From Patescibacteria group bacterium (GTDB taxonomy: Bacteria; Patescibacteriota; Microgenomatia; Daviesbacterales; UBA10151), in assembly GCA_038064895.1 (NCBI GenBank), contig JBBTSA010000010.1, positions 118,616 through 182,615 of the forward strand: a DNA stretch of 64,000 nucleotides, read 5' to 3'. Shown in pieces: positions 1 through 35,477 of the stretch (the first letter of the stretch is position 1; each line of letters opens with the position of its first letter). The position numbers and the translations under genes are program-made. The notes under the pieces were generated by a model. It searched no databases, was not told where the DNA came from, and saw nothing but the letters and a program-made list of their open reading frames with translations.

Positions 1-987
1 TGTTGTAAGAGAGATTAAAAAACCCGGTATAAAAAACATAAAAGTTAACCAGGGTAATATTAAGAAAAAGGGATTTAAAAAAATCTCTCCAAGTTCTGAA
101 TTTGTATACAAGTAAAATGGGTTGATGCCTAGTAAGCTAAAGGGTATAACTGACTGATTACTAATAGAGATTAAAGTCGATATATTACTGGATGCTGAAT
201 GTTGGGTTGAAACCAAAGGGGGTACGACTTTTATCGCCGGCCACAACCACCAGAAATGAATACAAAGCATAGCAATCAATCCTATAAACATTCTAAAGGA
301 TATTGACTTTAAGTTATTGAATCCTTTCCAAGGTATAAATACTTCAAATGCAGATATCAAAAAAATAAGCAAAATAATTGTGACAATAAAGGCCAATGCT
401 CCAAAAAGAGAAACAGCAAGAAAGTTAATCAGTAAAAAAATAAGTAAACTCGATGGCTTTCCTTCTCTAATCCACTTTCCCCAAAAAATAAAAAAGAAAG
501 GTAATGCTGCCATCAGTACAAATGTGTTATGAATAAACCTGTGCCAAACTTGAATCATCATGTATGGATTAAACATGTAAAAAAGACCTGCCAGTATTGC
601 CAAAATAACTTTCTCCTTCCCAAGGATACTCAAAGCCAAAAGAAACATTCCGTAACCTGAAAGAAAAAGAATTAACCAAAAAAGTACCGCCTGAATAGCA
701 ACATACGAGAGGCCAACTTCCTGGAAAAGTGATTGAAAAAGTTGTAGAAGTACAGAAGTCAGACCATGCGGAACAGTGGTACCAGGGGCAGCTGCTTCCC
801 ACCATATATATTTTGTAATATCCAAGATTCTTTTTGGATCATAAGATGGCAATCCTACATCTCCTCCACCGTAAAGCAAACCATATTTAAACCAGGAAAA
901 AATAATAATAGTACTAATGAAAGCAAAAAATAAAACTGCCAAAAAATAACTATTAACAAATATTTTTTTAAACTTTTTCACTGACAT
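1..987 (-). CDS. Partial (3' end runs off the window start) polytopic membrane protein, putative GT-C-like glycosyltransferase, family D paralog of 7077..9215
   Basis: My own translation of the minus strand gives an uninterrupted frame from ATG (987-985), starting MSVKKFKKIFVNSYFLAVLFFAFISTIIIFSWFKYGLLYGGGDVGLPSYDPKR... through the left edge of the window. It has many hydrophobic helices. The N-terminal loop motif F.W..G....GG(D/E).G.P.YD matches 7077..9215 (LWFSKGLIFAGGEEGIPFYDLDK). Its start overlaps the stop of 968..2611 in the compact-operon style seen throughout. The tabulated ORFs 317..532(+) and 569..805(-) are spurious by comparison. Confidence 0.55.
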   Translation of the reverse strand, partial: MSVKKFKKIFVNSYFLAVLFFAFISTIIIFSWFKYGLLYGGGDVGLPSYDPKRILDITKYIWWEAAAPGTTVPHGLTSVLLQLFQSLFQEVGLSYVAIQAVLFWLILFLSGYGMFLLALSILGKEKVILAILAGLFYMFNPYMMIQVWHRFIHNTFVLMAALPFFFIFWGKWIREGKPSSLLIFLLINFLAVSLFGALAFIVTIILLIFLISAFEVFIPWKGFNNLKSISFRMFIGLIAMLCIHFWWLWPAIKVVPPLVSTQHSASSNISTLISISNQSVIPFSLLGINPFYLYTNSELGEIFLNPFFLILPWLTFMFFIPGFLISLTT

Positions 988-2611
988 CCTTGTAAGCTAT
1001 AAAAGTATAATCACAAAGTGGCGGAAATAAATAATAAATAGGGGTAGCGGCAATATTTAAGGCATAGAAGAATTTTCTTATTATATCGCTATCAATTTTA
1101 TGAACAATTCCCTGATCACCGAGTAGCCATTTCCATCCGTATTTTTTTATCTTATATCCCCTTTTTTTAAATTCATCAGGAGTAAAGGCAGATTTATGCA
1201 GCTGCCAGATATTACCATCCTCAGCCGGGTGGTAGTGCTCGCCGATAGGAGTAGCAATTATCACCTGTATCTTTGCTATCCTTTCCATATTTTCTAAAAC
1301 TTTCCAGGCATCTTTTTCATCCATATGTTCAAGCACATGAGAAGCAATTACTACGTCAAAGGATTTTGGTGGAAATTTAACTTTTCTAATATCCTTTTGA
1401 ATATATTCATCATGAATTTTATTGGCCTTACCATAAGCAATATAAGGTTCAAAAAGATCTACGCCCACACTGTGACTAATTTTCATACGCAGTTTAATCA
1501 TTTCCATTGGTTTACCTTGACCGCAACCCAAATCAAGAATACTCTTAGCTGAATGATCTATTACCCAAGGCAACGGATCAGTCATTCCCATTAAATAAAT
1601 TTTGAGTGGATCCAATTTCTTATCTAAACTATTATAAGCTCTATTAATAAATGAGCTAAACGGATAAATAAGGCAATACGTTAATCCTGATGTAAAACCT
1701 AACCAGTATTTAATGAGGATGTCAAATCTTCTGCTGCTTAAAATGATCAAGGAATGAGCTATGGTATATGCCGGGAGCAGTATGAAAAAAAATACCAGAT
1801 TTTGGGGAAAAGGTGAGTGTTTACGCATAAAAATCATCTTATTTCTAGCAACTCTGTATGCTCTTTCAGGAGAGGTAATCCCCAACCATTCAATCCAGGG
1901 ATGGACATAGGAACTTTTTTTACCTTGGTGCCAGGTCTTGGCTTCAGAATAATAATAAATCTTAAACCCTGCTTTCCTGGCCCTAAAGGAAAAATCACTA
2001 TCTTCGTAAGGGATAAAATACTCCTTATCATAGTTACCAATTTTATTAAAAACTTCCCGTTTGACCATCCATACGCAACCGCACATTGGCACTTCCAGAA
2101 GTCCTCTATATTGTCCACGATCTTCTTCTCTTACTCCCCAAGCATTCACTCTACCTGTCAGCAAATCTATATCATGGCCTGCCCCTTGCAACATATTTTT
2201 TTTCTGCTTGTCATACAGAAGCGGCGCAATAATCCCTGCATCTTTTCTTTTTTCAAAAGCCTCTACCAGTTGCTTAATCATATCGACCTCCGCATAAGAA
2301 TCGTCATCTGCAAAAAGAACAAAGTCACCTGTTGCAAGTTCCAGCCCCTTGTTTCTACCTTCAGCTGCTCCCAAATTAACATGACTTGTTACCAGTTTAA
2401 CTTTAGGATATTTTTTAGGTAGCCAGGTTAAAAGTGGAGGACGCGAAGCATTATCTACCACAATAACCTCAATTTTTTTATATGAGGATTTAAAATAAGA
2501 GTCTAAACACTCTATTAAATCTTTTTTTCTGTCTTTACTAACTATAACTACAGAAACTAATTTTTGATTTTGCATAAAAAGCTTGGAAAGTATACCAAAA
2601 AGGTAAGACAA
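968..2611 (-). CDS. Fusion protein: N-terminal GT2 (GT-A fold) glycosyltransferase, central transmembrane segment(s), C-terminal class I SAM-dependent methyltransferase
   Basis: N-terminus KLVSVVIVSKDRKKDLIECLDSYFKSSYKKIEVIVVDNASRP and FADDDSYAEVDMI (DXD) are typical GT2. The middle region NLVFFFILLPAYTIAHSLIILSS...LTYCLIYPFSSFI is hydrophobic. The C-terminus has ILDLGCGQGKPMEMI (MTase motif I) and VVIASHVLEHMDEKDAWKVLENM (motif II/III region). Confidence 0.7.
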   Translation of the reverse strand: MSYLFGILSKLFMQNQKLVSVVIVSKDRKKDLIECLDSYFKSSYKKIEVIVVDNASRPPLLTWLPKKYPKVKLVTSHVNLGAAEGRNKGLELATGDFVLFADDDSYAEVDMIKQLVEAFEKRKDAGIIAPLLYDKQKKNMLQGAGHDIDLLTGRVNAWGVREEDRGQYRGLLEVPMCGCVWMVKREVFNKIGNYDKEYFIPYEDSDFSFRARKAGFKIYYYSEAKTWHQGKKSSYVHPWIEWLGITSPERAYRVARNKMIFMRKHSPFPQNLVFFFILLPAYTIAHSLIILSSRRFDILIKYWLGFTSGLTYCLIYPFSSFINRAYNSLDKKLDPLKIYLMGMTDPLPWVIDHSAKSILDLGCGQGKPMEMIKLRMKISHSVGVDLFEPYIAYGKANKIHDEYIQKDIRKVKFPPKSFDVVIASHVLEHMDEKDAWKVLENMERIAKIQVIIATPIGEHYHPAEDGNIWQLHKSAFTPDEFKKRGYKIKKYGWKWLLGDQGIVHKIDSDIIRKFFYALNIAATPIYYLFPPLCDYTFIAYKDVSEKV

Positions 2612-2640: not shown

Positions 2641-4938
2641 TCAACTTTTTAATACCTTCCAAAGGTTAATCCCATTTCCAACTCCTGACCACATCAGTTC
2701 TGTTTTACAAGTACATATTTTTTGAGGATCTGTTTTTTCTCCTAACACTAAATAATCATAATCATCTTTTTCTCCATAATACGTTAGATCAACATCTATT
2801 TGGAAATTATAGAAACTACCATTTGATCCAGGATAATAGACTTTTCTGTCAATTAGAGCCACTCTGGTACTACGATAGATATCTTCGTGTATCTCAGGGT
2901 AGCCTTCTAAATAATACGAACCAATCTTGGGTGCAATTTGTGAAAGTTCAGCTAAAGTTCCTCCTAGATCTTTTCCATAAGTAAAATAATCATCTAAGAT
3001 CTCCAAAATTACTATATTGTTACTAGTTGTGGATTTATGAATGGGTTTAAAAAAGGAGGAATTTGATAAGTCAGGGACTCTTTGTTTGGGTAATTGAGAT
3101 ATATATGTATCATTAACAATTATATATTTAACTTTTAATTGTTTTAATAAACTAGGATTTAGAGTAAAAAATATGTCATTGTAAGTAGGGCTTGTTCCCA
3201 TCCCATAAAGCACCCTGATATTTGGTGGCCAAAGCGGTGTAAAAGCTCCTTCCTCTCTCAAAATTGAACCATAAGGAGAAGTCGTTGGAAAAGCATCTAC
3301 AAAAATTAAAATCCTATCTTGTAGCTTTATATTATCTTTAACCCACTTAAAAACCGGAAAATCTGTATTTGTGGATCTAGTGTACCAATTATAATCTGGT
3401 CTGGGATAAAGAAGTAAGAATGCTGGAATAATTGAAATTAAAAATATCCAAATAAAGATTGCCTTAAAAAAATAATTTATTTTCTCCCAAAATAAGTAAA
3501 CAAGATAAACAATATTCAAACCAGATAGATAATATGATAACCCCAGTAAACGATTGCCATTTATGTGAAGATAACCTTTGGGTACTATAGCATGATAGGC
3601 AAATAAAGCTATCAGTGACGTCAGGGACAAAATCCATAATCTAGCTACGTTATTTCTATCTTTAGTATATTTCCATAGTAAAAAAGTGCTAACAATAAAA
3701 AATAATCCAGTTCTCCAAGGCATTCCTAAGTTAAAAAAAATAAAAGGGTAATATTCTTGATTATTAATCAGTTTACTTCGTTGCTGAGCTAAGCGATCAC
3801 TCCTATAGTTCTTAGCTGATGGACCATATTCGTCAGGAGGGAAAATCAGGAGATCACTTGATGTGTGATCAGGGTTAAGGACAACATTTGATAGAATACC
3901 TCCTTGGAACACAATTAATAACACTAGTACCAGGGTAAAATTTAGAAATTTTAAAAATGATTTTCTAAAAATAGCAAAAAACATTACTAATAAAATTGCA
4001 GGAACGGTTACTATAAATGTTGATTCATCAGTTAAACCCATAGAAGCAAGCAGAACTGTAATGGTAGCTAGAAAGAAAATATTTTTTTTGGGTGAGAATA
4101 TTATTACTAGTGAGGTTATAAACATACCCAATGTTAAAATACGGTGAGGAAAAAGCATAAAGGATTCCAGAGTGGTTTGAGTGCCATAAGTTACAAACGC
4201 CTGAGGGAGAGTTGGTAGCTTTTGTAACCAATTTAAAATTGTCCCATTGAGATGTGGAAGAGCTAAACTAACCGGCCAAGCAAGCCAAATGCTCCCTAAA
4301 GAAATTAATCCAAAGGCAGCGGGTACAAAATACATTAAAAGAGGGACTTTTTTGACTTTTAAAAACCAAGTTAATATTAAAGTTAAACAAAACAGTCCGA
4401 TAAATTCAAAAAAAGCAAATAAAAATTCATAAGGAGTACCAGTAATAGTTCTGGTAGCAGCCAATAACTCAGCAAATCCTATGTGATAATTTGCCAGATA
4501 ATCAGGTTGCCAGGGAAGATGAATGGGATAATCTCCCCTGGCAAAGACTGATCCTAAGGCATAATGAGTAAAAGAATCAGCACTCATAGCAGGTCCTGAA
4601 GCAGTGATAGTTAATAGGAATATAAACCATGTTAAAGTAGATCCCCAAAAGACAAAACCTTTCTTTGGAAAATATATGGGGTCAGTTTTAGTATATTTTT
4701 TTATAAAAAATGCTCCTGTCAAAAGAATAAATAGAGAAATGTAAAAGTCAGCAGGACCTTTTATTAAGTGAGCTACTAAATTTATAAGAAAAATATAACA
4801 ACTAATCCCCAAGATCGTTCCAGAAGGTATTAATACCTGGATTCGATTTTCTGTTGTAATCCTTCTTAGGAGAACCCAACCACTCCAAAAAAGTGCAGCA
4901 ATAAAAAGAAATGTTATAGGGTAGCTTGTAAAATGCAT
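2641..4938 (-). CDS. Polytopic membrane protein, family A (765 aa). About 13 predicted TM helices plus a roughly 250 aa C-terminal soluble domain; putative GT-C-like glycosyltransferase
   Basis: Paralog of 33161..35473 and 55382..57733. Shared blocks are RRITTENRIQVLIPSGTILGISCYIFLINLVAHLIKG, HLPWQPDY, DESTFIVT and the C-terminus YDYLVLGEKTDPQKICTCKTELMWSGVGNG. No STT3 WWDYG motif seen. Immediately downstream of GT2 4954..5871 on the same strand. Confidence 0.5.
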   Translation of the reverse strand: MHFTSYPITFLFIAALFWSGWVLLRRITTENRIQVLIPSGTILGISCYIFLINLVAHLIKGPADFYISLFILLTGAFFIKKYTKTDPIYFPKKGFVFWGSTLTWFIFLLTITASGPAMSADSFTHYALGSVFARGDYPIHLPWQPDYLANYHIGFAELLAATRTITGTPYEFLFAFFEFIGLFCLTLILTWFLKVKKVPLLMYFVPAAFGLISLGSIWLAWPVSLALPHLNGTILNWLQKLPTLPQAFVTYGTQTTLESFMLFPHRILTLGMFITSLVIIFSPKKNIFFLATITVLLASMGLTDESTFIVTVPAILLVMFFAIFRKSFLKFLNFTLVLVLLIVFQGGILSNVVLNPDHTSSDLLIFPPDEYGPSAKNYRSDRLAQQRSKLINNQEYYPFIFFNLGMPWRTGLFFIVSTFLLWKYTKDRNNVARLWILSLTSLIALFAYHAIVPKGYLHINGNRLLGLSYYLSGLNIVYLVYLFWEKINYFFKAIFIWIFLISIIPAFLLLYPRPDYNWYTRSTNTDFPVFKWVKDNIKLQDRILIFVDAFPTTSPYGSILREEGAFTPLWPPNIRVLYGMGTSPTYNDIFFTLNPSLLKQLKVKYIIVNDTYISQLPKQRVPDLSNSSFFKPIHKSTTSNNIVILEILDDYFTYGKDLGGTLAELSQIAPKIGSYYLEGYPEIHEDIYRSTRVALIDRKVYYPGSNGSFYNFQIDVDLTYYGEKDDYDYLVLGEKTDPQKICTCKTELMWSGVGNGINLWKVLKS

Positions 4939-4953
4939 TCTTGATTTATAAAA

Positions 4954-5871
4954 TTACCCTCTTCTAATTTTAGGTAATGGAATATATGATTTATTATTCA
5001 AAGGATACCAAAATCCAACTATAGTGCCAAAAACCATCTCAAAGAATTTATTAAGTTGACCAAACCTTACAGTTTCAATTAAATAATAAGTTAACAGGAA
5101 TGGAATAAATAAAGTGAAGGTAAAGATATTGCCATGTTTCCTCATGAATAAAACCCTGTTTCTTCCTAAAAGGTATGCCCTGGTTAATACTCTCGGCCTC
5201 CAAATATTTGGATCTTTTGATTGATCATGATAAGCGACAGCTTCGGGTGTATACCAGGTTATAAAACCCGCCTTTTTTGCCCGTAAACAATACTCCGGAT
5301 CAAAATAACAAAGAAACCAATCTTCAAATCCGCCGATTTTGTCAATAACAGATCTTAAATAAAGCATTACTGTTCCGGAATTTTGAACCTCTTTTGCTTG
5401 TAAAAAGTTTTTCTTTAGTCCCCATCCAACTGTAACTTTTCCGGTTATTAAATTCACATTTGCTCCTGCTTGATTAACCCAATTTTTATCGGAAAGATAG
5501 AGAATCATGGGTATCACTATACCTATATCAGGGCGAAAGTCCGAAGCCTCCACCAATTTTAAAATCATATCTTTATCAACTACCACATCATCATCTACAC
5601 AAAGAATGTGATTCTTGCGCTTAGCATGGGCAAATCCCAAATTGTAACATCCGGTTTGACCAATGTTTTTCTCTCCGGCGTAAATCCATTTAACCCATTT
5701 GTATTTCTTTTTACCCTCTTGCATGACATCGTATGCAGGACTGTTATCCACAACAATTACTTCAAGTTTTGGATAATTAGAATCTTTTAAAGACTTAAGT
5801 AATCTAAAAAGTCTATTTTTTCCGTTAAATGTTGGTATAACTGCAGAAACACCAGGTAGAGACTTTTTCAT
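4954..5871 (-). CDS. Glycosyltransferase family 2 (GT-A fold)
   Basis: VSAVIPTFNGKNRLFRLLKSLKDSNYPKLEVIVVDNSP and CVDDDVVVDKDMI (DXD). Length 305 aa. Confidence 0.75.
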   Translation of the reverse strand: MKKSLPGVSAVIPTFNGKNRLFRLLKSLKDSNYPKLEVIVVDNSPAYDVMQEGKKKYKWVKWIYAGEKNIGQTGCYNLGFAHAKRKNHILCVDDDVVVDKDMILKLVEASDFRPDIGIVIPMILYLSDKNWVNQAGANVNLITGKVTVGWGLKKNFLQAKEVQNSGTVMLYLRSVIDKIGGFEDWFLCYFDPEYCLRAKKAGFITWYTPEAVAYHDQSKDPNIWRPRVLTRAYLLGRNRVLFMRKHGNIFTFTLFIPFLLTYYLIETVRFGQLNKFFEMVFGTIVGFWYPLNNKSYIPLPKIRRG

Positions 5872-5892: not shown

Positions 5893-7080
5893 TCACGTTA
5901 TATAACTTAATACTTCATTTGCTCTTTTATCCCAAGACCAATTTTGAGTAATCATAGATTTAGCTTGATTCCCTATTTTGGAATATGCTTTTTTATCTCT
6001 TAAGAGATTCAGTATCTCTTCTGCAAAGGCTTCCATATCATTTATTGGAACTTTTACCATTCCTTTTGGGTAATATGATTTATATGAAATAAGATTAAAA
6101 CCAACTGCAGGTAGTCCGAAAGCCATTGCCTCGGCCGAAGCCATCCCTCCTGAATCATAAAAAGCAGGATGAAGAACAACTTTGCTTTGAGCAAATATTT
6201 TGTATTTTTTCTCCCCGTCAAATACATATCCAAAAAGTACAATATTTTTTTGTAAATTTAACTTATCTATCCTTTTTTTTACATTGCTCATCAATGGACC
6301 ATCCCCTATTAAGGCTAACTTTGCGTCAGATTTTTGATCAACTACCAACTTCCAAATATTTATTAACTCCACAACTCCTTTTTGTGGATGGAAACGTCCC
6401 TGAAAAACTCCGTCGTATATCTTTGGTAATTTTCCTCCGCTTTCTTTGCGAATCCAATTTCCAATTTGTTTAAAATCAACTGCCCCCAATACTACTATTA
6501 CCTTTCCGCTCTTTTCCATGTCAGGAAACTGTTTTCTCTCATCTTCATTATTTACCAATACAAAATCTGCAAACTTTTTTATTAGAGGTTTAATAGGCAG
6601 TTGTACAAACCAGTATAAAAATGCATGCAATCTATATGAAAGAACTCTTTCTCCTTCTTTAAAACCCACCAGAGGATTTGGGGCTGTTTGAAACCACGTA
6701 GCCACCCAGGTAATCTTTGGAAACCTAAGCTTCCAAATCACTGCCGGCAAGGAATCCATCCAGAACTCCGAGGCCGAATACACAACAGTATCTTTTTCAT
6801 TTTTTAATTTGGTTGTGAGAGAAAACAAAATTGCAGATAAAATTACGGCAACATAATTTATAACAAATCCTAAATACTTCCAGGGGCTCATCTTTATTAC
6901 CATAAAAGTTACATCTTTACTGCTTAAACTTTGTCTTTTATACATTTCATAGCCTTCTTCCCAAACATAAATAGTAACCGGGTATAACCTGGCCCATCTT
7001 TTAGCAAATTCAGTCGCTATTCTGTCGCAGCCGGAAATCCCCTTTCCCTGTGCTGTCATACCAATCATTATAATATTCAT
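5893..7080 (-). CDS. Glycosyltransferase family 4-like (GT-B fold, GT1 superfamily)
   Basis: C-terminal motif GGMASAEAMAFGLPAVGF is the E-X7-E region of retaining GT4 enzymes. The tabulated ORF extends to 7116; the start is more likely MNIIMIG (ATG about 7080), which abuts the stop of the upstream gene at 7077 (ATGA-type overlap). Confidence 0.7.
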   Translation of the reverse strand: MNIIMIGMTAQGKGISGCDRIATEFAKRWARLYPVTIYVWEEGYEMYKRQSLSSKDVTFMVIKMSPWKYLGFVINYVAVILSAILFSLTTKLKNEKDTVVYSASEFWMDSLPAVIWKLRFPKITWVATWFQTAPNPLVGFKEGERVLSYRLHAFLYWFVQLPIKPLIKKFADFVLVNNEDERKQFPDMEKSGKVIVVLGAVDFKQIGNWIRKESGGKLPKIYDGVFQGRFHPQKGVVELINIWKLVVDQKSDAKLALIGDGPLMSNVKKRIDKLNLQKNIVLFGYVFDGEKKYKIFAQSKVVLHPAFYDSGGMASAEAMAFGLPAVGFNLISYKSYYPKGMVKVPINDMEAFAEEILNLLRDKKAYSKIGNQAKSMITQNWSWDKRANEVLSYIT

Positions 7081-9215
7081 CTTGCAATCACCTTTTTCGT
7101 ATAATATATGATACAAATTAAACTCAATAGTAGAACTGCTCCTTTAGAAATCCGCATTCCCCAATTTACATAATCTTGAGGCTTATATTTTATTTCTACA
7201 AAAAAATTACCTATTTTATTAATCTTCCAACTGTTTGCATAAGAAAAAAGTTTGTTATGTTCTTTAATTTCTAGGCCATCAATATTAACCTGCCAATTTG
7301 GATCAAAATTCTCCAGAAAATATAAATCAAAAGGTTCTTCAGAAGCTATATCAGCAATGTATAAAGTTGGGTTAATCCTTGTGTACTGTACTTTCGCTTG
7401 AGGCGAATAAATCAGGTGAATATCAGATGATATTTCTACTTTATATATATCCAACTTCCCAAAGCTATTAATTTTTTTAATATTCTTTTGGGTTTCTAAA
7501 TATTTTTCAACCGGTTCAAAGCTACCCAATAGACCTACCTCTGGATCAACATCTTTATGTAATATAATATAACGGACATTTAACTTAGCAAGTTCTTCAT
7601 AAAGATGCTCACTTCTAAACTCAGAGTGAGTAATATCAGGATCTGGTCCATAAACTAAAGGCTGAAATTTATTAAATCTTTGTAGTAGAACATTGTAATA
7701 AAGTTTAAGTGACTGGCCATTTTTGCCAATTGAGGGTCGGTCAAATATATACTCACCCGGCTCAATCCCCTGATATGGATGTTCCCAACCACTATATCTT
7801 AATCCATCTCCAGGATTTATCGGAAAATGAATTATCCTTCCATCATCTTGCTGCTCATTTAACCAATGATTTAAATCCGTGTAATAGTTCGGCACTTGTA
7901 CCCATGGACTAATTTTAATTCCTCCAGCAGTAAATTGTCCTGTCCAGATGGGCCAAAGGAAAACTCCGCATACTAAGAAAATGAGTACAAGTAATATTGT
8001 ATAAGAAGATACTGTATTTTTAAATACTCTGCCCATCTTTTTTGAGATAACAGCTACCCCAATTGCAAAAAAGGGTGCATAAGCTATAGTCAAAACAATC
8101 CCAAATTTTTCAAAGGGATTTCTAAATGCCTGAAAAATAGGGAAAGTTTTAAATATTGGCACAAACAACCATCCAGTTGGCTTATTAGCACCTAAGCAAA
8201 TAAATAAAGAAAATAAAAATAAAATTGAGAAAAACAAGAATACTTTTAACTTTTTAAACGTTTTGTAGGAAAAAAGTGCTGCCAAAGGTATTATCCAACT
8301 TATTAATATAAATGGGAGGGAAGAGTAGCTGACACCGAACTTCTGATCTCTATAAAAATAACCTTCATGTATCAGCCTCAAAAGACTATGCAATTGATAA
8401 TCTTTACTTATTCCAGTAAGAGTCCCTACATTCACTTCAGTATTATTTAAGGCCTGTGAAAATTGATTAGAAGAGATTTTAATAAAAGGATAGATCCACC
8501 ACATGTGCGATAAAACCCAACCCGCCAGCATAAACAAAAAATAAATTACAGAAAAAAAAATATTTTTTTTGTCAGGGTTTTTAATTATGTAAAAAATCAG
8601 ACATATAAATATAATTATCCAAAAAGAAAAAATATAACTGGGATTACCAAAAGACCCTGCAAAAAATACTGATGCCAAAAGTCCCAATAAACCAAAAATT
8701 AAATTTTTATTCTTAAGACCCAATATGAACATTAGTAAAACGAATGGAAATAAGGCAAAAGGAAAAAATTGTAAATATAATCCTCTTCCCCAAATTTGAG
8801 TCATAGAAAAAGGATTTAATAAATAAAAAATGGCTCCAATTAAGGGTACAAGTTTAAATAAATTGTTTTCTTTAGAGCTAAGTTCTTTACCAACTGTTTC
8901 TCGTAAGAGAAAGTAGATAGCGATAGTTCCAGCTGACATAATGATAAAAAAGTGCAGAGCTTGGACCAAGAATCCAGGCAGACCGATTAAATAAAATATT
9001 TTTAAAAAGCTAAAATAAGGTATTCTGTTTAAATTTAGTTGGGTTGGTAAACCTCCTGATATATCCTGCCAGGCATATGAAACAAATTGCATAGTTTTAT
9101 CTAAGTCATAAAAGGGGATCCCCTCTTCTCCTCCTGCAAATATTAGACCCTTTGAAAACCATAGAAAGACTATAGTAAGAATAATAAAAATTAATATTAG
9201 TAAATCTCTAAACAT
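7077..9215 (-). CDS. Polytopic membrane protein, family D (712 aa); putative GT-C-like glycosyltransferase with C-terminal soluble domain
   Basis: About 12 hydrophobic helices in the N-terminal 430 aa. N-terminal loop motif FAGGEEGIPFYDLDKT is shared with the partial gene 1..987. The C-terminal roughly 280 aa is hydrophilic. Possibly related to the DUF3367/arabinofuranosyltransferase-like families, from memory only. Confidence 0.5.
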   Translation of the reverse strand: MFRDLLILIFIILTIVFLWFSKGLIFAGGEEGIPFYDLDKTMQFVSYAWQDISGGLPTQLNLNRIPYFSFLKIFYLIGLPGFLVQALHFFIIMSAGTIAIYFLLRETVGKELSSKENNLFKLVPLIGAIFYLLNPFSMTQIWGRGLYLQFFPFALFPFVLLMFILGLKNKNLIFGLLGLLASVFFAGSFGNPSYIFSFWIIIFICLIFYIIKNPDKKNIFFSVIYFLFMLAGWVLSHMWWIYPFIKISSNQFSQALNNTEVNVGTLTGISKDYQLHSLLRLIHEGYFYRDQKFGVSYSSLPFILISWIIPLAALFSYKTFKKLKVFLFFSILFLFSLFICLGANKPTGWLFVPIFKTFPIFQAFRNPFEKFGIVLTIAYAPFFAIGVAVISKKMGRVFKNTVSSYTILLVLIFLVCGVFLWPIWTGQFTAGGIKISPWVQVPNYYTDLNHWLNEQQDDGRIIHFPINPGDGLRYSGWEHPYQGIEPGEYIFDRPSIGKNGQSLKLYYNVLLQRFNKFQPLVYGPDPDITHSEFRSEHLYEELAKLNVRYIILHKDVDPEVGLLGSFEPVEKYLETQKNIKKINSFGKLDIYKVEISSDIHLIYSPQAKVQYTRINPTLYIADIASEEPFDLYFLENFDPNWQVNIDGLEIKEHNKLFSYANSWKINKIGNFFVEIKYKPQDYVNWGMRISKGAVLLLSLICIIYYTKKVIAR

Positions 9216-10257
9216 ATAGAACCCTTTGAGGTAGCTTTCCGTCTTCGTATTTGAAATTAAAATGTATAAAATAGTATTTCCAGTTTGGATTTACCAGGCA
9301 TTTCTTAAAAATTTCATCATCTGAAACTTTCCTGATTTTACTCTGTATAAGTTTTCTTTTCTCCAAAGTATTCTTTATATGAACCAAGTGCCAAAGATAG
9401 GCTTTTGGCAATGTTGCTGCTATATTGAATCTAAGCTTTATAATATTTACAAAAAACCAAAGAAGAAGCATTAAATTAAAATTGAAAAGCATTAGGAATA
9501 AATAGGGGGCGGATAAGTTTCTTAAGAAAGAGCTAATATGATTGCGGTGATTATAGTACCAAATCTGGGGATTGGCTCCTTTCATGGTTGCACTCCACAA
9601 ATGCCATAAATTAGCCCTAGGACAATAAACAACAGTATATCCTGCAAGCCATACTCTGTGCGACAGATCACTATCATCATAAAAATAGAAGAAATCCTCA
9701 TCAAAAAGTCCGCAAAGCCGCGCGGTTTCTTTTCTTATTAGGAAACCTGCTCCATTGCAACTAAAAATATAATATTTTTGTTGATAATTACCGTTGTCCT
9801 TATTTTGTAAAAGTCCGAAATGGTATAAAAAACCCGTATAGGTTATAAAACTTCCCACGTTATGCAAAAAATTTGGATTTTTCATCTGAATTATTTTAGG
9901 TGCAACAATACCTATTTTTTTATCATTTTCTATCATATTTACCATATAAGATATTGCCCTTTTTTCTATCTTTGTATCATTACTTAAAAGCATAATATAT
10001 TTACCTTTGCAAAATTTGAAACCGAAATTAAAGCCCCCGGTTAATCCCCTATTTACTTTTAATTTAACAATTTTTATTTTTGAGTGTGGAAATTTATCTT
10101 TAATGAACCCCGATATATCTTCGGAAGATCCATTATCTGAAACTATAAATTCTAAGTTTGGATAATCCGAATTTAAAACGCTTCTTAGACAATCATTCAG
10201 CAAATCTGTACGATCGTATGTTAATATTAGAATGGAAACCAAGGGATCTTTATGCAT
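9208..10257 (-). CDS. Glycosyltransferase family 2
   Basis: VSILILTYDRTDLLNDCLRSVLNSDYPNLEFIVSDNGSSEDI and YFYDDSDLS (acidic DXD-like). Confidence 0.75.
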   Translation of the reverse strand: MHKDPLVSILILTYDRTDLLNDCLRSVLNSDYPNLEFIVSDNGSSEDISGFIKDKFPHSKIKIVKLKVNRGLTGGFNFGFKFCKGKYIMLLSNDTKIEKRAISYMVNMIENDKKIGIVAPKIIQMKNPNFLHNVGSFITYTGFLYHFGLLQNKDNGNYQQKYYIFSCNGAGFLIRKETARLCGLFDEDFFYFYDDSDLSHRVWLAGYTVVYCPRANLWHLWSATMKGANPQIWYYNHRNHISSFLRNLSAPYLFLMLFNFNLMLLLWFFVNIIKLRFNIAATLPKAYLWHLVHIKNTLEKRKLIQSKIRKVSDDEIFKKCLVNPNWKYYFIHFNFKYEDGKLPQRVLYV

Positions 10258-12001
10258 TTTTTTTAACCAGTAAATAATTACTTAAAGCTAAGTATTTTAA
10301 ACCAGTAACTTTGAAAGTGTGCAAGGCATCTTCTGGACTACAAACAATTGGTTCCCCATGGTAGTTAAATGAAGTATTTAAAACTGCACCAATTCCGGTA
10401 AGTTCCTCAAAATATTTAATTAACCTCCAGTAGTGGGGGTTATCCTTTTTTGTAAGTATTTGAGGACGACATGTAAAATCGGCGGGGTGCACTGCCACAG
10501 CCAAATCTTTTCTTGCCTTCGCGGTGGTATCAAAACCTATCGCCATAAATGAAGCATTGATATTTTTGGGATTAACAATATATTCTTTTGCTCTCTCTGC
10601 TAAAATAGTTGCGGCAAAAGGCATCCAAAAATCCCTTGACTTAACCTGATCATTAAGCTCTAACTTTAAATCCACTCTACTGGGATCCATTAAAATTGAT
10701 CTGTTGCCCAAGGCTCTGGCTCCCCACTCCATCCTTCCTTTGAAACGTCCTACTATTTTCCCTTCTGCCAAAAGCCTGGCAATTTCTTTTTCAATATCAG
10801 AGTATTTTTTAACTTTATACTTTTTATTTTTTTCTTTAAAAATCAATCCTTCAATTTCTCTGTCTGAATATTCTGGTCCCAAATAAAGACTTTCTACATT
10901 ATTAGCATTTAATCCACCCTGAAGTTGAAAACCATAATATGCTCCACCAAAAGGTGCTGATTCGTCTGAAGCTGATGGACAAACAACCAAATTTTCGACT
11001 TCTGAAATTTCTGAAATTTTTTTATTGGCTTTAACATTCATGAAAAATCCTCCTGAAACAACTACATTTTTAATACCTGTTCTTTTAATTGCTTTTTTTA
11101 CCAGCTCAACTACCAACTGCTCTACAAAAATTTGTGCCGCTGCTGCCACTCCATCAAATCTTTTATGAATTAGAAACTTATCAAAGTAATATAAGTATGA
11201 ACCTGATGGATATTTAGAATGAATCATTAAATCATCATCAATCCAAAATAAATCTTTAAGAAGTGGGTAAACCTTACTAGTTTCATATTGAGACACATAA
11301 GGCGCAAGACCCATCACTTTATATTCATGCTCATTCATCTTCATTCCAAGAAAATGAGTGATTAAACCGAAGAAAGTAGCAATAGAATTACCTCCCAACG
11401 TTGCTGCAATTTTTTTCCACTTCCCTTTTTCTACTGTCCAAACTGTGCCACATAAGCTATCACCCTCACCATCTAAGGTAATAACTAGTTGATTTTTTTG
11501 TTGATCCTTCAATGGAACAAAGCCATAATAGGCTGCATAAGCGTGACAAAGATGGTGATTGGCAAAAACAATTTTTTTTCCATCAATCCCTAAAAATTTG
11601 GCCATGTTAACCCTAAACTGTATCTTAAATATTGGAGCCAATATATATTTGGATAAAAAAATGTAACAGTCTTTAAGAAAAAAACCAAGGCTAGGAAATT
11701 GAAAAGTTAGTTTTTTTAAGTATTTTGAAGGGTATAAAATAGTATCCATCAACTTTTGACTTTTTGTTTCACCATAAGGATTCACATATCCTTCAGGATG
11801 TTCATAAATACGGACAAATAAATCTACATCTTTAGCACTTATGCCTACTTGTTCCAAACAGTAATTGATGGCTTGTGTAGGAAAAACATCGGCATTTTTT
11901 ATTCGATTAAATCTTTCTTCTGAAACGGATGCTAAAATCTCCCCATCCTTTAAGATGCATGCAGTCGCATTATGTCCTTTATAAAATCCAATGGTAATCA
12001 T
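10250..12001 (-). CDS. Carbamoyltransferase, NodU/CmcH/TobZ family (O-carbamoylation of a sugar)
   Basis: N-terminal ITIGFYKGHNATACILKDGEILASVSEERFNRIKN is the signature Carbam_trans_N block. Length 580-596 aa fits. The tabulated start at 12040 overlaps the divergent gene; the ATG giving MITIGFY (about 12001) is more likely. Confidence 0.8.
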   Translation of the reverse strand: MITIGFYKGHNATACILKDGEILASVSEERFNRIKNADVFPTQAINYCLEQVGISAKDVDLFVRIYEHPEGYVNPYGETKSQKLMDTILYPSKYLKKLTFQFPSLGFFLKDCYIFLSKYILAPIFKIQFRVNMAKFLGIDGKKIVFANHHLCHAYAAYYGFVPLKDQQKNQLVITLDGEGDSLCGTVWTVEKGKWKKIAATLGGNSIATFFGLITHFLGMKMNEHEYKVMGLAPYVSQYETSKVYPLLKDLFWIDDDLMIHSKYPSGSYLYYFDKFLIHKRFDGVAAAAQIFVEQLVVELVKKAIKRTGIKNVVVSGGFFMNVKANKKISEISEVENLVVCPSASDESAPFGGAYYGFQLQGGLNANNVESLYLGPEYSDREIEGLIFKEKNKKYKVKKYSDIEKEIARLLAEGKIVGRFKGRMEWGARALGNRSILMDPSRVDLKLELNDQVKSRDFWMPFAATILAERAKEYIVNPKNINASFMAIGFDTTAKARKDLAVAVHPADFTCRPQILTKKDNPHYWRLIKYFEELTGIGAVLNTSFNYHGEPIVCSPEDALHTFKVTGLKYLALSNYLLVKKNA

Positions 12002-12032
12002 TATAAATTTGGAATATAATATCACTACATTT

Positions 12033-12644
12033 ATGATCAAAGCAATTGTATTTGATTTGGATGGGGTATTAATAGATGCAACACAGTGGCACTATCAGGC
12101 ATTAAATGATGCTTTGAAACTCTTCGGGTTTGAAATAGGGTTAGAAGAGCATCTTAGCACATACAATGCCTTACCAACTGTTGAAAAATTAAAGCTCATG
12201 TCTGAAAGGAAGGGATTACCGTTGGGACTGCATGAAATGATAAAAATTTTGAAAAGGAGATTCACAGATAGAAAGGTCGAACAACTCTGTAGTCCCGATC
12301 ACCAAAAACAAATTATGCTCTCGCATCTTAAAAAAAAGGGTTACAAATTGCTGTGTTGCAGCAACTCTCAAAAATATTCAGTAATGAATATGATTAAATC
12401 TGCTGGCATAGCTGATTATTTTGATCTTATTTTAGGAAATGATGAAGGGTTTAAACCAAAACCTAATCCGGATATATATCTGGCGGCATTCAAAAAATTA
12501 AAAATTAATCCGGAAGAAGCATTAATAATAGAAGATGCAACTCATGGTATTGAAGCTGCAAAGCGCTCTGGAGCAAGAGTTTTTGCTGTTAGAGGATTTG
12601 AAGATGTCAATTTATCACTTTTTCTAGACTTAAATTTAATATAA
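12033..12644 (+). CDS. HAD-superfamily hydrolase, subfamily IA (phosphatase or beta-phosphoglucomutase-like)
   Basis: MIKAIVFDLDGVLIDATQWH (HAD motif I DxDGV), CCSNS (motif II Ser/Thr), K...IIEDATHGIEAAKRSGA (motifs III/IV). The track start at 11991 is probably too far upstream; the likely start is MIKAIVF at about 12033. Confidence 0.8.
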   Translation: MIKAIVFDLDGVLIDATQWHYQALNDALKLFGFEIGLEEHLSTYNALPTVEKLKLMSERKGLPLGLHEMIKILKRRFTDRKVEQLCSPDHQKQIMLSHLKKKGYKLLCCSNSQKYSVMNMIKSAGIADYFDLILGNDEGFKPKPNPDIYLAAFKKLKINPEEALIIEDATHGIEAAKRSGARVFAVRGFEDVNLSLFLDLNLI

Positions 12645-19166: not shown

Positions 19167-19925
19167 TTAGTTTTTTAATTTCAATTTTAATAAAAATACT
19201 GGCTTTGCAAATTTCCACCAGTCAATAATTGGTCTAATTTTTGAGTAATTTTTTACATTTGCTAGATAATCTTTTGAAATGGGTACCTCTTTAACTTTAT
19301 AACCTAAAGTTATAACTTTATAGTGCAAATAAACTTCCAGTTCATAACTATTAAGCCAATTTTGATCTATATTAATTCTCCTATCCTTAAAAATTGACAG
19401 CTTGTAAGCTCTAAAGCCATTTGTAGAATCTGTAAATTTAAATCCTATAAATATCCTCATGAATAATGTAAATCCCAATATCATAATTTTTCTTAAAATT
19501 GGCAAATTTTTAAATGATCCACCCTTCAAAAACCTGGAGCCTTGCACATAATCAAAGTTGTCATTGATAATGGGACTTAGCAAAAGTGGAATCTCTAAAG
19601 GAGTATCCTTACCATTTCCTGCCATTATTACACAAATATCAAAATTGTTACTTAGCCCAAAATTGATTACACTTCTAATTGCTGAGCCCACTCCTCTATT
19701 GCTTGTATGCGAAATTATCTTTGCATTTTTAATATAATTTTTCTTTAAAAAAATTTTAATAACTTTTACAGAATTATCTGTTGACCCATCATTAAGAAAT
19801 AGTATTTTATATGAAAAGTTTAAATGAAACCTTTTAAATTTTTCTAATAGGAATCTTATCTTATCTGCCTCATTGTAAAAGACCACACCAATCAAAATCT
19901 TGAGGTTATTTTTCATATCTTGCAA
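19167..19925 (-). CDS. Glycosyltransferase family 2
   Basis: KILIGVVFYNEADKIRFLLEKF...LNDGSTDNS (GT2 D-G-S motif). Confidence 0.7.
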   Translation of the reverse strand: MQDMKNNLKILIGVVFYNEADKIRFLLEKFKRFHLNFSYKILFLNDGSTDNSVKVIKIFLKKNYIKNAKIISHTSNRGVGSAIRSVINFGLSNNFDICVIMAGNGKDTPLEIPLLLSPIINDNFDYVQGSRFLKGGSFKNLPILRKIMILGFTLFMRIFIGFKFTDSTNGFRAYKLSIFKDRRINIDQNWLNSYELEVYLHYKVITLGYKVKEVPISKDYLANVKNYSKIRPIIDWWKFAKPVFLLKLKLKN

Positions 19926-35473: not shown

Positions 35474-35477
35474 TTAT

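What the first reader, a model, noticed from the sequence alone, without database searches (positions are those of the whole stretch)
968..2611. Single polypeptide fusing a GT2 glycosyltransferase, a membrane-spanning linker and a SAM methyltransferase
The N-terminal 260 aa are a canonical GT2 with the DXD (DDD) motif. Residues about 290-340 form hydrophobic helices. The C-terminal 200 aa are a class I MTase (LDLGCGQG...ASHVLEHMD). A glycosyltransferase physically tethered to a methyltransferase through a membrane anchor suggests coupled addition and methylation of one sugar residue at the membrane. This organisation resembles WbdD-type terminating kinase-methyltransferases or methyl-capped glycans, but in a different domain order.
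Basis: seen in the sequence. Interest (0 to 1): 0.6.

Follow-up and report, generated by a model that had tools for sequence, protein, structure and literature searches.

The report
Membrane-anchored glycosyltransferase–methyltransferase fusion enzyme
This is a real single gene, conserved in hundreds of groundwater "candidate phyla" bacteria, that joins a sugar-adding enzyme to a methyl-adding enzyme through a two-helix membrane anchor; it is an uncharacterised variant of a known kind of bifunctional enzyme that builds cell-surface sugar chains, not a sequencing artefact.

Summary
The minus-strand ORF 968..2611 encodes one protein; the likely start is ATG 2575, giving 535 aa. It has an N-terminal GT2/GT-A domain (DDD 90-92, ED-x-D 191-194, His216), a two-helix hydrophobic hairpin (aa 258-306) and a C-terminal class I SAM methyltransferase (LDLGCGQG).

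It is not a hidden frameshift. More than 400 homologues keep the same architecture, down to 26% identity, with the catalytic residues of both domains invariant. The identical protein is already in NCBI as "glycosyltransferase".

In Daviesbacteria, Amesbacteria and Woesebacteria it sits in a conserved cassette: AftD-like GT-C, GT4, GT2-TM, fusion, AftD-like GT-C. Related genomes carry split or re-fused versions: a separate methyltransferase gene, tandem methyltransferases, or GT2-TM joined to a polytopic membrane domain.

The GT domain resembles WbbL, GlfT1 and GlfT2 rather than polyprenyl-phosphate sugar synthases. The most likely function is to add a sugar to a membrane-bound glycan on the cytoplasmic face and then methylate it.

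The WbdD analogy fails: there is no kinase, no coiled coil and no ABC transporter. Characterised GT–methyltransferase fusions already exist (WsaE, A064R, Klebsiella O7 ORF6). This is a new variant of a known kind, of modest interest.

The parts
968..2575 (-). CDS of the GT2-TM-methyltransferase fusion protein (535 aa; stop codon at 968-970)
   Evidence: ORF. Identical to the 535-aa P0001 / MEK7616868.1. The start agrees with homologues.
2576..2611 (-). In-frame 12-codon upstream extension from TTG; probably not translated
   Evidence: The ORF list uses the first possible start. Gene calls and homologues start at ATG 2575.
1871..2575 (-). GT-A fold GT2 catalytic domain (aa 1-235)
   Evidence: Pfam PF00535, E 2e-25. 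AF2 model with pLDDT 91. Foldseek hits to ppGalNAc-T, GlfT2, CgT, TarP and TarS.
2300..2308 (-). DxD motif (D90-D91-D92), the nucleotide-sugar/metal binding site
   Evidence: Invariant in 39 homologues. D90 and D92 are invariant down to 26% identity.
1994..2005 (-). E191-D192-S-D194 motif; D192 is the putative catalytic base
   Evidence: Invariant. It corresponds by position to the GlfT2 base D372.
1928..1930 (-). His216, putative third metal ligand, 24 residues after D192
   Evidence: Invariant. GlfT2 has the same 24-residue spacing between D372 and H396.
1817..1870 (-). Basic amphipathic juxtamembrane helix (aa 236-253; R244-N245-K246 conserved)
   Evidence: Helix in the AF2 model. Hydrophobic moment 0.43; aa 240-257 carry 5 K/R and no acidic residues. 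R244, N245 and K246 are invariant in A1; N245 is invariant in A4.
1658..1804 (-). Two-helix hydrophobic hairpin (TM1 aa 258-280, TM2 aa 284-306) with a 3-residue turn
   Evidence: Hydropathy (Eisenberg means 0.64 and 0.53). AF2 helices 258-280 and 284-320. An even number of helices puts both catalytic domains on the same side of the membrane.
1562..1657 (-). Helical linker of variable length (aa 307-338)
   Evidence: Length varies among homologues (columns 320-345). AF2 helices.
971..1561 (-). Class I SAM-dependent methyltransferase domain (aa 339-535), including an amphipathic helix at 497-509 and the last beta-strand at 524-530
   Evidence: Pfam PF08241, PF13649 and related families. Domain model with pLDDT 93 and pTM 0.89. 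Foldseek hits to small-molecule class I methyltransferases.
1514..1540 (-). SAM-binding motif I (ILDLGCGQG, aa 346-354)
   Evidence: Read directly from the sequence. D348, G352 and G354 are invariant; D348 and G352 are invariant down to 26% identity.
1..987 (-). Start of the downstream gene, a 1183-aa AftD-like GT-C membrane protein. Its ATG at 987 overlaps the fusion gene by 20 nt, and the gene runs off the window.
   Evidence: The Pfam GT-C_AftD match is borderline. Orthologues sit directly downstream of the fusion in 10 of 14 genomes.
2641..4938 (-). Upstream 765-aa polytopic membrane protein with no Pfam match, in a variable slot of the cassette
   Evidence: It has no counterpart in the other loci.
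4954..5871 (-). Paralogous GT2-TM protein without a methyltransferase (305 aa; 33% identical to the fusion's N-terminal 320 aa)
   Evidence: Conserved upstream partner in 12 of 14 genomes.
5893..7080 (-). GT4 glycosyltransferase, a conserved member of the cassette
7077..9215 (-). AftD-like GT-C membrane glycosyltransferase (712 aa), a conserved member of the cassette
   Evidence: Pfam PF11847, E 1e-12, 47 bits. Conserved across loci.

Best explanation
The gene encodes a bifunctional enzyme of envelope-glycan assembly, anchored in the membrane by a helical hairpin so that both catalytic domains face the cytoplasm.

The N-terminal GT-A domain is an inverting, metal-dependent GT2 of the WbbL/GlfT1/GlfT2-like type, with a DxD motif, an Asp base and a His ligand. 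It transfers a sugar from a nucleotide sugar to a hydroxyl of a membrane-bound acceptor, most likely a polyprenyl-diphosphate-linked glycan. The basic juxtamembrane helix probably positions that acceptor.

The tethered class I SAM methyltransferase then methylates the same intermediate, most simply the residue just added, before the glycolipid is exported. Outside the membrane it is elaborated or transferred by the AftD-like GT-C enzymes encoded next to the gene.

Shown here: the fused architecture, its conservation, the intact catalytic motifs of both domains, the predicted topology, the conserved gene cassette, and the fission and fusion variants.

Inferred: the lipid-linked acceptor, sugar O-methylation, which residue is methylated, and the donor sugar.
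For: - The fusion is real and ancient. More than 400 homologues of about 515-547 aa carry both domain sets. At least 8 fused 50%-identity cluster representatives reach down to 26% identity, with D90, D92, E191, D192, D194, H216, D348, G352, D373, D407, E416, H417 and H460 invariant.
- The AF2 model is confident (pLDDT 91, pTM 0.76). It shows a GT-A domain, a hairpin at 258-280 and 284-320, and a Rossmann methyltransferase.
- GT type: the best NCBIfam hits are rhamnosyltransferase TIGR01556, EpsD, MftF, HpsN and GlfT1. Fold hits are ppGalNAc-T and GlfT2. The spacing from D192 to H216 equals that from the GlfT2 base D372 to its ligand H396.
- In contrast, the small GT2s of the same window hit ArnC, PpgS and Dol-P-hexose synthase models, and the fusion does not.
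- Functional linkage of the two domains: orthologous methyltransferases (55-57% identical) are encoded as separate genes right after the GT2-TM gene in L015, L023 and L024. A GT2-TM-MT-MT form exists (L014, P0006).
- Context: the cassette AftD-like GT-C, GT4, GT2-TM, fusion, AftD-like GT-C is conserved. A GT-C-type protein lies within two genes downstream in 14 of 14 genomes. The downstream gene overlaps the fusion by 20 nt.
- Precedents: A064R domain 3 2-O-methylates the rhamnose added by domain 2 (PMC9614988). WsaE methylates rhamnose (PMC2943079).
- The sugar O-methyltransferases RebM and AtmM are among the fold neighbours of the methyltransferase domain.
Against: - No member of the family has been characterised. 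Every NCBIfam hit is far below its curated cut-off, so neither donor nor acceptor can be assigned.
- The methyltransferase has only generic small-molecule neighbours (TM-score 0.5-0.6), including phosphoethanolamine N-methyltransferases. O-methylation of a sugar is therefore not demonstrated.
- In other genomes the GT2-TM module is fused to a polytopic membrane domain (P0121, P0125). It is also consistently paired with GT-C proteins. That pattern is equally typical of lipid-phosphate-sugar donor synthases.
- The topology is predicted only, and the turn of the hairpin carries two arginines.
Confidence: 0.55

Rival explanations
1. Donor-synthase model. The GT2-TM module makes a polyprenyl-monophosphate sugar, as GtrB, DPMS, ArnC and PpgS do. 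The fused methyltransferase methylates that lipid-linked monosaccharide, which is flipped and used by the adjacent AftD-like GT-C as a pre-methylated donor.
For: - The fusion gene overlaps, or sits directly before, an AftD-like GT-C in most genomes.
- In other genomes the GT2-TM module is fused directly to a polytopic membrane domain (P0121, P0125, and L023 and L024).
- A GT2 catalytic domain followed by C-terminal TM helices is the layout of GtrB and DPMS (own knowledge).
Against: - The GT domain gives no NCBIfam hit to ArnC, PpgS, Dol-P-hexose transferase or AglJ models, whereas five small GT2s in the same window do.
- DPMS matches only the N-terminal nucleotide-binding half. GtrB and DPMS are not in the top 50 fold hits.
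- The invariant Asp base and His ligand are the GlfT2-type arrangement used for hydroxyl acceptors.
- I know of no precedent for methylation of a polyprenyl-phosphate sugar.
Confidence: 0.12
2. Chain-terminator model. The methyltransferase installs a non-reducing-end methyl cap that stops polymerisation and marks the chain for export, as WbdD, WsaE and Klebsiella O7 ORF6 do in ABC-transporter-dependent pathways.
For: WsaE and ORF6(O7) combine GT modules with a terminating methyltransferase in one polypeptide. A single methyl cap on the last sugar added is compatible with one GT plus one methyltransferase.
Against: - There is no kinase domain, no coiled-coil ruler and no carbohydrate-binding module in the protein.
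- Pfam found no ABC_tran or Wzm/Wzt in any ORF of 110 aa or more in the 64-kb window. One related locus has a Wzx-type Polysacc_synt gene instead.
- WbdD is not among the displayed sequence or fold neighbours.
- Variants with two tandem methyltransferases, and loci with an extra free methyltransferase, suggest decoration rather than one cap.
Confidence: 0.12
3. The methyltransferase domain methylates something other than a sugar hydroxyl. Candidates are N-methylation of an amino sugar or a phosphoethanolamine-type substituent, or methylation of a lipid head group, with the GT domain acting on the same molecule.
For: Phosphoethanolamine N-methyltransferases are among the top fold neighbours. 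The island encodes four DegT-type aminotransferases, a formyltransferase and an acetyltransferase-like hexapeptide protein, so amino sugars are made here.
Against: The similarities are generic (TM-score 0.5-0.6, 13-22% identity). The sugar O-methyltransferases RebM and AtmM score equally well. The characterised GT-methyltransferase fusions are O-methyltransferases.
Confidence: 0.15
4. Artefact. Two separate genes, a GT2 and a methyltransferase, were merged by a sequencing or assembly error that removed a stop codon or shifted the frame.
For: Split versions do exist in some genomes: L015, L021, L022, L023 and L024.
Against: The identical 535-aa protein is found on at least 3 independent contigs. 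More than 100 listed homologues from independent assemblies have the same continuous architecture. The linker folds as a confident helical hairpin.
Confidence: 0.01

Closest known systems
PBCV-1 (chlorovirus) A064R
   Same: One polypeptide carries glycosyltransferase domains followed by a C-terminal class I SAM methyltransferase. That methyltransferase O-methylates the sugar (terminal L-rhamnose, O-2) that the preceding GT domain has just added (PMC9614988).
   Different: A064R is soluble, has two GT domains of other families (GT-A D1 similar to GT34, and a novel D2), has no TM hairpin, and acts on a viral capsid N-glycan. Sequence homology was not tested here.
WsaE of Geobacillus stearothermophilus NRS 2004/3a (S-layer glycan)
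   Same: A multifunctional enzyme that combines rhamnosyltransferase domains with a SAM methyltransferase domain, which 2-O-methylates a rhamnose of the lipid-linked glycan on the cytoplasmic side (PMC2943079).
   Different: The domain order is reversed (methyltransferase at the N-terminus). WsaE has two GT domains, is soluble, and its methylation is a chain-terminating cap in a Wzm/Wzt ABC-transporter pathway. No such transporter was recognised in this window.
Klebsiella pneumoniae O7 ORF6 and E. coli O9a WbdD/WbdA
   Same: Methyltransferase and GT2 modules are physically combined, or recruited together, at the cytoplasmic membrane face during O-polysaccharide assembly (PMC11231755).
   Different: Those terminators pair the methyltransferase with a kinase, produce a methyl-phosphate cap, and use a coiled-coil molecular ruler. 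None of these features is present here.
GT2 enzymes of the WbbL / GlfT1 / GlfT2 / HpsN / EpsD / MftF group
   Same: These are the best sequence-family and fold neighbours of the GT domain. The DxD motif, Asp base and His ligand arrangement matches GlfT2 (D256/D258, D372, H396), including the same 24-residue spacing from base to His.
   Different: All scores are far below the family cut-offs (for example 81.5 against 200.55 bits for TIGR01556). Those enzymes lack the C-terminal TM hairpin and fused methyltransferase. GlfT2 has extra N- and C-terminal domains and is a polymerase.
RebM/AtmM sugar O-methyltransferases and other small-molecule class I methyltransferases (PMT, TleD, BpumL, LahSB)
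   Same: Rossmann-type class I fold with the GxGxG SAM motif and an acidic residue after strand 2. They are among the top Foldseek hits of the domain model.
   Different: Only 13-22% identity and TM-scores of about 0.5-0.6. There is no specific family assignment. This domain has its own conserved C-terminal amphipathic helices (aa 497-516).

Membership tests
Glycosyltransferase family 2 (Pfam PF00535, GT-A fold) | Significant match to the family HMM above the gathering score | tested here: met
   PF00535, E 2.2e-25, 90 bits against a cut-off of 23.3, covering profile positions 1-167 of 168.
Glycosyltransferase family 2 (Pfam PF00535, GT-A fold) | DxD metal/nucleotide-sugar motif and a GT-A Rossmann-like fold | tested here: met
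   DDD 90-92 is invariant. The AF2 model (pLDDT 91) has GT-A enzymes as its top Foldseek hits, E 1e-15 to 1e-13.
GlfT2/WbbL-like GT2 subgroup acting on sugar hydroxyl acceptors | Catalytic Asp base in an (E/D)D motif plus a downstream His metal ligand | tested here: inconclusive
   E191-D192-x-D194 and H216 are invariant. The D-to-H spacing of 24 equals that from D372 to H396 in GlfT2. Profile alignment ends (query 62-219 against 4fix chain 244-419) are consistent. Residue-level superposition was not available.
Rhamnosyltransferase subfamily TIGR01556 | Score at or above the curated cut-off | tested here: not met
   This is the best NCBIfam hit, but it scores 81.5 bits against a cut-off of 200.55. 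Donor specificity cannot be inferred.
Polyprenyl-phosphate sugar synthases (GtrB / DPMS / ArnC / PpgS type GT2) | Sequence-family similarity across the whole catalytic domain | tested here: not met
   No such family is among the best 25 NCBIfam hits for the fusion (44 matched in all). Five small GT2s in the same window do hit ArnC, PpgS, Dol-P-hexose transferase and AglJ. DPMS 5mlz matches only aa 4-115.
Polyprenyl-phosphate sugar synthases (GtrB / DPMS / ArnC / PpgS type GT2) | GT-A domain followed by C-terminal transmembrane helices | tested here: met
   Hairpin at aa 258-306 after the GT-A domain. This layout is shared but is not sufficient for membership.
Class I SAM-dependent methyltransferases (Methyltransf_11/25) | HMM match above cut-off, GxGxG motif I, an acidic residue after strand 2, and a Rossmann fold | tested here: met
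   PF08241 scores 58.7 bits against 21.2, and PF13649 scores 55.3 against 27. D348, G352, G354 and D373 are invariant. The domain model has pLDDT 93 and class I methyltransferases as its top hits.
WbdD-type chain terminators | Kinase domain paired with the methyltransferase | tested here: not met
   There is no kinase family in Pfam or NCBIfam, and no unassigned globular region in the AF2 model.
WbdD-type chain terminators | Extended coiled coil that acts as a molecular ruler | tested here: not met
   Only the TM hairpin and short helices (aa 307-338) lie between the domains.
WbdD-type chain terminators | Operates with a Wzm/Wzt ABC transporter that recognises the cap | tested here: not met
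   Pfam found no ABC transporter domain in any ORF of 110 aa or more in the window. Membrane proteins without a Pfam match cannot be excluded as exporters of another kind.
Characterised multidomain GT-methyltransferase enzymes (WsaE, A064R, ORF6-O7) | GT and SAM methyltransferase domains in one polypeptide acting on the same glycan | tested here: inconclusive
   The domain combination is shown, and a functional link is supported by fission variants. Action on one glycan is not testable in silico. Sequence homology to these proteins was not tested because their sequences were not at hand.
Mycofactocin MftF / MftM pair | Equivalog-level scores and an mft gene context | tested here: not met
   MftF scores 72.3 bits against a cut-off of 280. 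MftM scores 36.1 against 200 and covers only aa 404-461. No mft genes are in the window.

The most novel reading that the evidence does not exclude
The GT2-TM-methyltransferase and the overlapping downstream AftD-like GT-C form one coupled unit. The cytoplasmic fusion enzyme would produce a pre-methylated lipid-linked sugar donor or primer, and the GT-C would then incorporate it outside the membrane. Patescibacteria would in that case deliver O-methyl sugars to their envelope glycan through a lipid-carrier route that has not been described in any organism.
Probability: 0.1. Interest if true: 0.6.

Novelty: new variant of a known kind. Interest (0 to 1): 0.3.

Why it matters
Nothing is known experimentally about the surface glycans of Microgenomates/Patescibacteria, which are ultra-small, probably epibiotic bacteria. 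This window is a 64-kb glycan-assembly island, and the fusion protein is a conserved core member of a cassette with AftD-like GT-C enzymes.

The fusion, together with its split and re-fused relatives, gives a clean Rosetta-stone argument that a specific GT2, a specific methyltransferase and a family of membrane proteins without Pfam matches work together. It predicts that these organisms make methylated envelope glycans, which are more hydrophobic and could resist glycosidases.

For glycoenzymology it is a compact, single-GT example of the 'add then methylate' logic. Until now that logic has been characterised only in soluble multi-GT enzymes. The concept itself is not new.

Tried and rejected
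- Frameshift or merged-gene artefact: rejected on conservation.
It was rebuilt from substrings of accepted proteins.
- The cluster look-up of distant fused representatives gave no names or taxonomy. Their origin outside Patescibacteria is therefore only suggested by their amino-acid composition (P0132, P0261).
- A literature search on Patescibacteria, GT-C and cell envelope returned only mycobacterial and other unrelated work.
- Lenient Pfam scans (E up to 1) of the large membrane neighbours gave nothing beyond a borderline AftD match and a weak CBM_4_9 hit.
- The mycofactocin (MftF/MftM) lead from NCBIfam was rejected on scores and context.
- A processive-synthase reading (PgaC/IcaA-like) was rejected. 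Only the N-terminal half matches, and there is no multi-helix channel.
Full report
**Observation**

The window has an uninterrupted minus-strand ORF at 968..2611, 547 codons from a TTG. The probable start is the ATG at 2575. This gives a 535-aa protein identical to P0001 / MEK7616868.1, named 'MAG: glycosyltransferase [Patescibacteria group bacterium]'. Homologues start at the same position.

Pfam finds Glycos_transf_2 (E 2e-25) in the N-terminal part and Methyltransf_11/25/31/12/23 (best E 9e-16) in the C-terminal part. Both are well above the gathering scores. Hydropathy shows one strongly hydrophobic helix (aa 258-280) and one moderately hydrophobic helix (aa 284-306) between the two domains. 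The minor corrections are the strand, the start codon, and helices that lie about 20 residues earlier than stated.

**Not an artefact**

The word-indexed search returned 412 homologues. The top 120 are almost all 515-547 aa, are 52-83% identical over about 97% of the query, and carry both Pfam domain sets. JGI names several of them 'GT2 family glycosyltransferase/SAM-dependent methyltransferase'. The identical protein occurs on at least three independent contigs from Hainich groundwater assemblies and on an NCBI MAG.

An exhaustive HMMER search of 1.84 billion cluster representatives found fused representatives down to about 30% identity: P0084, P0123, P0132, P0138, P0139, P0142, P0160 and P0261. 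In an alignment of these, the following residues are invariant:
- GT domain: N67, G69, R74, N75, D90, D92, E191, D192, D194, R198, H216, N245.
- Methyltransferase domain: D348, G352, G371, D373, D407, E416, H417, H460.

Both active sites are therefore under purifying selection in a long-lived fused architecture.

**Anatomy**

An AlphaFold2 model built on 39 homologues is confident (pLDDT 91.2, pTM 0.76). It shows these parts:
- A GT-A domain (aa 7-230).
- A basic amphipathic helix (aa 236-253); aa 240-257 carry five K/R and no acidic residue.
- A tight helical hairpin (258-280 and 284-320) with a three-residue turn.
- Short linker helices whose length varies among homologues.
- A Rossmann methyltransferase (aa 345-535).

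The 'hydrophobic C-terminal tail' is partly the last beta-strand of the methyltransferase fold (524-530). It is preceded by an amphipathic helix pair (497-516; hydrophobic moment 0.57), which could lie on the membrane surface or act as a lid.

Two membrane helices place both domains on the same side. Because SAM and nucleotide sugars are cytoplasmic, that side is the cytoplasm. This step is inference.

**What kind of GT**

The best NCBIfam hits are rhamnosyltransferase TIGR01556 (covering almost the whole profile), EpsD, MftF, HpsN and GlfT1. All are far below their cut-offs. Foldseek against the PDB gives ppGalNAc-transferases, GlfT2 (330-349 aligned columns), CgT, TarP, TarS and RmlT.

GlfT2 uses D256/D258 (DxD) and H396 for Mn2+ and D372 as the catalytic base (PMC11538602). 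Here DDD 90-92, D192 and H216 are invariant. The base-to-His spacing is 24 residues in both proteins, and the ends of the profile alignment to 4fix are consistent with this equivalence.

As a control, five small GT2s (235-262 aa) elsewhere in the window hit the polyprenyl-phosphate sugar synthase models ArnC, PpgS, Dol-P-hexose transferase, AglJ and PgfS. The fusion and its 305-aa paralogue do not. The GT domain is therefore of the type that glycosylates a hydroxyl group, typically of a lipid-linked glycan. It is not a lipid-phosphate sugar synthase.

**What kind of methyltransferase**

No solved structure is a close relative by sequence. A domain-only model (pLDDT 93.1, pTM 0.89) finds generic small-molecule class I methyltransferases:
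- putative methyltransferases 3cc8 and 3dli;
- phosphoethanolamine N-methyltransferases;
- the sugar O-methyltransferases AtmM and RebM;
- TleD, BpumL and LahSB.

These hits have TM-scores of about 0.5-0.6 and 13-22% identity. The fold and the SAM site are certain. The substrate, and even O- versus N-methylation, is not. WbdD does not appear among the displayed hits.

**Genomic context**

The whole 64-kb window is a glycan-assembly island. It contains:
- at least 11 GT2s and several GT4s;
- at least five further methyltransferases, including a TylC3-like C-methyltransferase;
- a NodU/CmcH-type carbamoyltransferase;
- RmlD, four DegT aminotransferases, a formyltransferase, a UDP-glucose dehydrogenase and several epimerases;
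- about a dozen polytopic membrane proteins of 480-780 aa with no Pfam match.

Pfam recognised no ABC transporter and no Wzx.

The fusion gene lies in a co-directional run: carbamoyltransferase, GT2, AftD-like GT-C (712 aa), GT4, GT2-TM (305 aa; 33% identical to the fusion's N-terminal part), a 765-aa membrane protein, the fusion, and an AftD-like GT-C (1183 aa). The start codon of that last gene overlaps the fusion gene by 20 nt.

Across 14 distinct genomes of Daviesbacteria, Amesbacteria and other Microgenomates, the cassette 'AftD-like GT-C, GT4, GT2-TM, [free methyltransferase], fusion, AftD-like GT-C (about 1150 aa), small 110-aa protein, large ~1100-aa protein' is conserved. GT4 plus GT2-TM lie upstream in 12 of the 14. 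A GT-C-type protein lies within two genes downstream in all 14.

**Fission and fusion variants**

The same modules occur in other combinations:
- GT2-TM-MT-MT (745 aa; P0006, P0007, L014).
- The fusion plus a separate 242-aa methyltransferase (L015).
- GT2-TM alone, 311-318 aa (L018, L021, L022).
- GT2-TM fused to a polytopic domain of about 580 aa, followed by a separate methyltransferase 56-57% identical to the fused one (L023; L024 in a Woesebacterium).
- GT2-TM-GT2 (P0122).
- The methyltransferase alone (P0134, 227 aa, 51% identical), in tandem (P0164), or joined to an FkbM methyltransferase (P0133).

The 580-aa domain is homologous to several of the window's Pfam-less membrane proteins; the best match is 35442-37247, E 1e-45. 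These Rosetta-stone relationships tie the GT2-TM module, this methyltransferase and that membrane-protein family to one pathway.

**Mechanism**

The best-supported reading has three steps:
1. On the cytoplasmic face, the anchored GT-A domain adds a sugar to a membrane-bound, probably polyprenyl-PP-linked, glycan.
2. The tethered methyltransferase then methylates that intermediate, most simply on the residue just added.
3. The product is exported and further handled by the neighbouring GT-C enzymes.

This follows the logic shown biochemically for PBCV-1 A064R, where domain 3 2-O-methylates the rhamnose added by domain 2. It also follows WsaE, a methyltransferase with two rhamnosyltransferase domains. 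Klebsiella O7 ORF6 likewise has a methyltransferase and GT2 modules in one chain.

The main rival is that the GT2-TM module makes a lipid-phosphate sugar which is methylated and handed to the adjacent GT-C. The tight GT2/GT-C pairing and the GT2-TM/membrane-domain fusions favour it. The family and active-site evidence goes against it.

The WbdD-type terminator analogy fails on every defining feature that could be tested. A non-sugar or N-methylation target cannot be excluded.

**Novelty and verdict**

GT-methyltransferase fusions are an established kind, and this exact protein family is already auto-annotated with both domains. What is specific here is the layout and the setting: a single WbbL/GlfT-like GT2, a TM hairpin and a C-terminal methyltransferase, in a conserved Microgenomates envelope-glycan cassette with AftD-like GT-Cs. 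No member has been studied.

I rate it a new variant of a known kind with modest interest (0.3). The most novel reading not excluded is a pre-methylated lipid-linked donor route coupled to the GT-C. I give it a probability of about 0.1.

Noticed in passing
window 1-64000: The entire window is one glycan-biosynthesis island. It holds at least 11 GT2s, several GT4s, at least five stand-alone methyltransferases, sugar-nucleotide modifying enzymes, and about a dozen polytopic membrane proteins of 480-780 aa with no Pfam match. Pfam recognised no ABC transporter or Wzx flippase.
   Followed up: partly
window 35442-37247, 21364-23052, 39056-40945, 46747-48327: These are paralogous membrane proteins without Pfam matches. 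In other genomes (P0121, P0125; L023 6591-9260; L024 6936-9650) the homologous domain of about 580 aa is fused to the C-terminus of a GT2-TM module. A 'GDDW' motif in the first loop suggests a GT-C-like enzyme. The family looks uncharacterised.
   Followed up: partly
window 19167-19925, 22950-23657, 48331-49086, 51632-52366, 54628-55416: Five small GT2s (235-262 aa) match polyprenyl-phosphate sugar synthase models (PpgS, ArnC, Dol-P-hexose transferase, AglJ, PgfS). Most sit next to large unannotated membrane proteins. This suggests several GtrB/GT-C-type extracytoplasmic glycosylation systems in one locus.
   Followed up: partly
window 10250-12040: A NodU/CmcH-type carbamoyltransferase lies at the head of the same operon, which suggests O-carbamoylated sugars in the glycan.
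   Followed up: no
window 49067-50305: A sugar C-methyltransferase (Methyltransf_13 and Methyltransf_14 domains, TylC3-like) suggests that a branched-chain C-methyl sugar is made here.
   Followed up: no
window 23654-25790: A formyltransferase lies next to a DegT aminotransferase and a GT2 of the polyprenyl-phosphate type. This recalls the ArnA/ArnB/ArnC logic for a formylated amino sugar on a lipid carrier.
   Followed up: no
L001 15137-15469 and 18850-19185; equivalents in L006-L017: Small proteins of about 110 aa with no Pfam match are conserved after each giant membrane protein (about 1100-1180 aa) downstream of the fusion. Their function is unknown.
   Followed up: no
L003 1-2502 versus window 2641-4938: The 100%-identical fusion protein occurs on a second contig from the same aquifer with different upstream genes (DAGK, a 128-aa protein and a 517-aa protein instead of the 765-aa membrane protein). 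The slot upstream of the fusion also varies between genomes.
   Followed up: no
L009, L010, L015, L017, L021: MAGs titled 'uncultured Gammaproteobacteria bacterium isolate binchicken_...' carry this Daviesbacteria-type cassette at 58-69% identity. Their taxonomic label is probably a placeholder or an error.
   Followed up: no
P0132, P0261: Distant fused homologues (26-34% identity) have an Arg/Ala-rich composition typical of high-GC organisms. The architecture may therefore extend beyond Patescibacteria; no source taxonomy was available.
   Followed up: partly
one search hit list (P0136, P0148, P0175 and others): Giant proteins of 1000-4400 aa with 3-7 tandem GT2 domains are among the best matches to the GT domain. 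Their origin and role are unknown.
   Followed up: no
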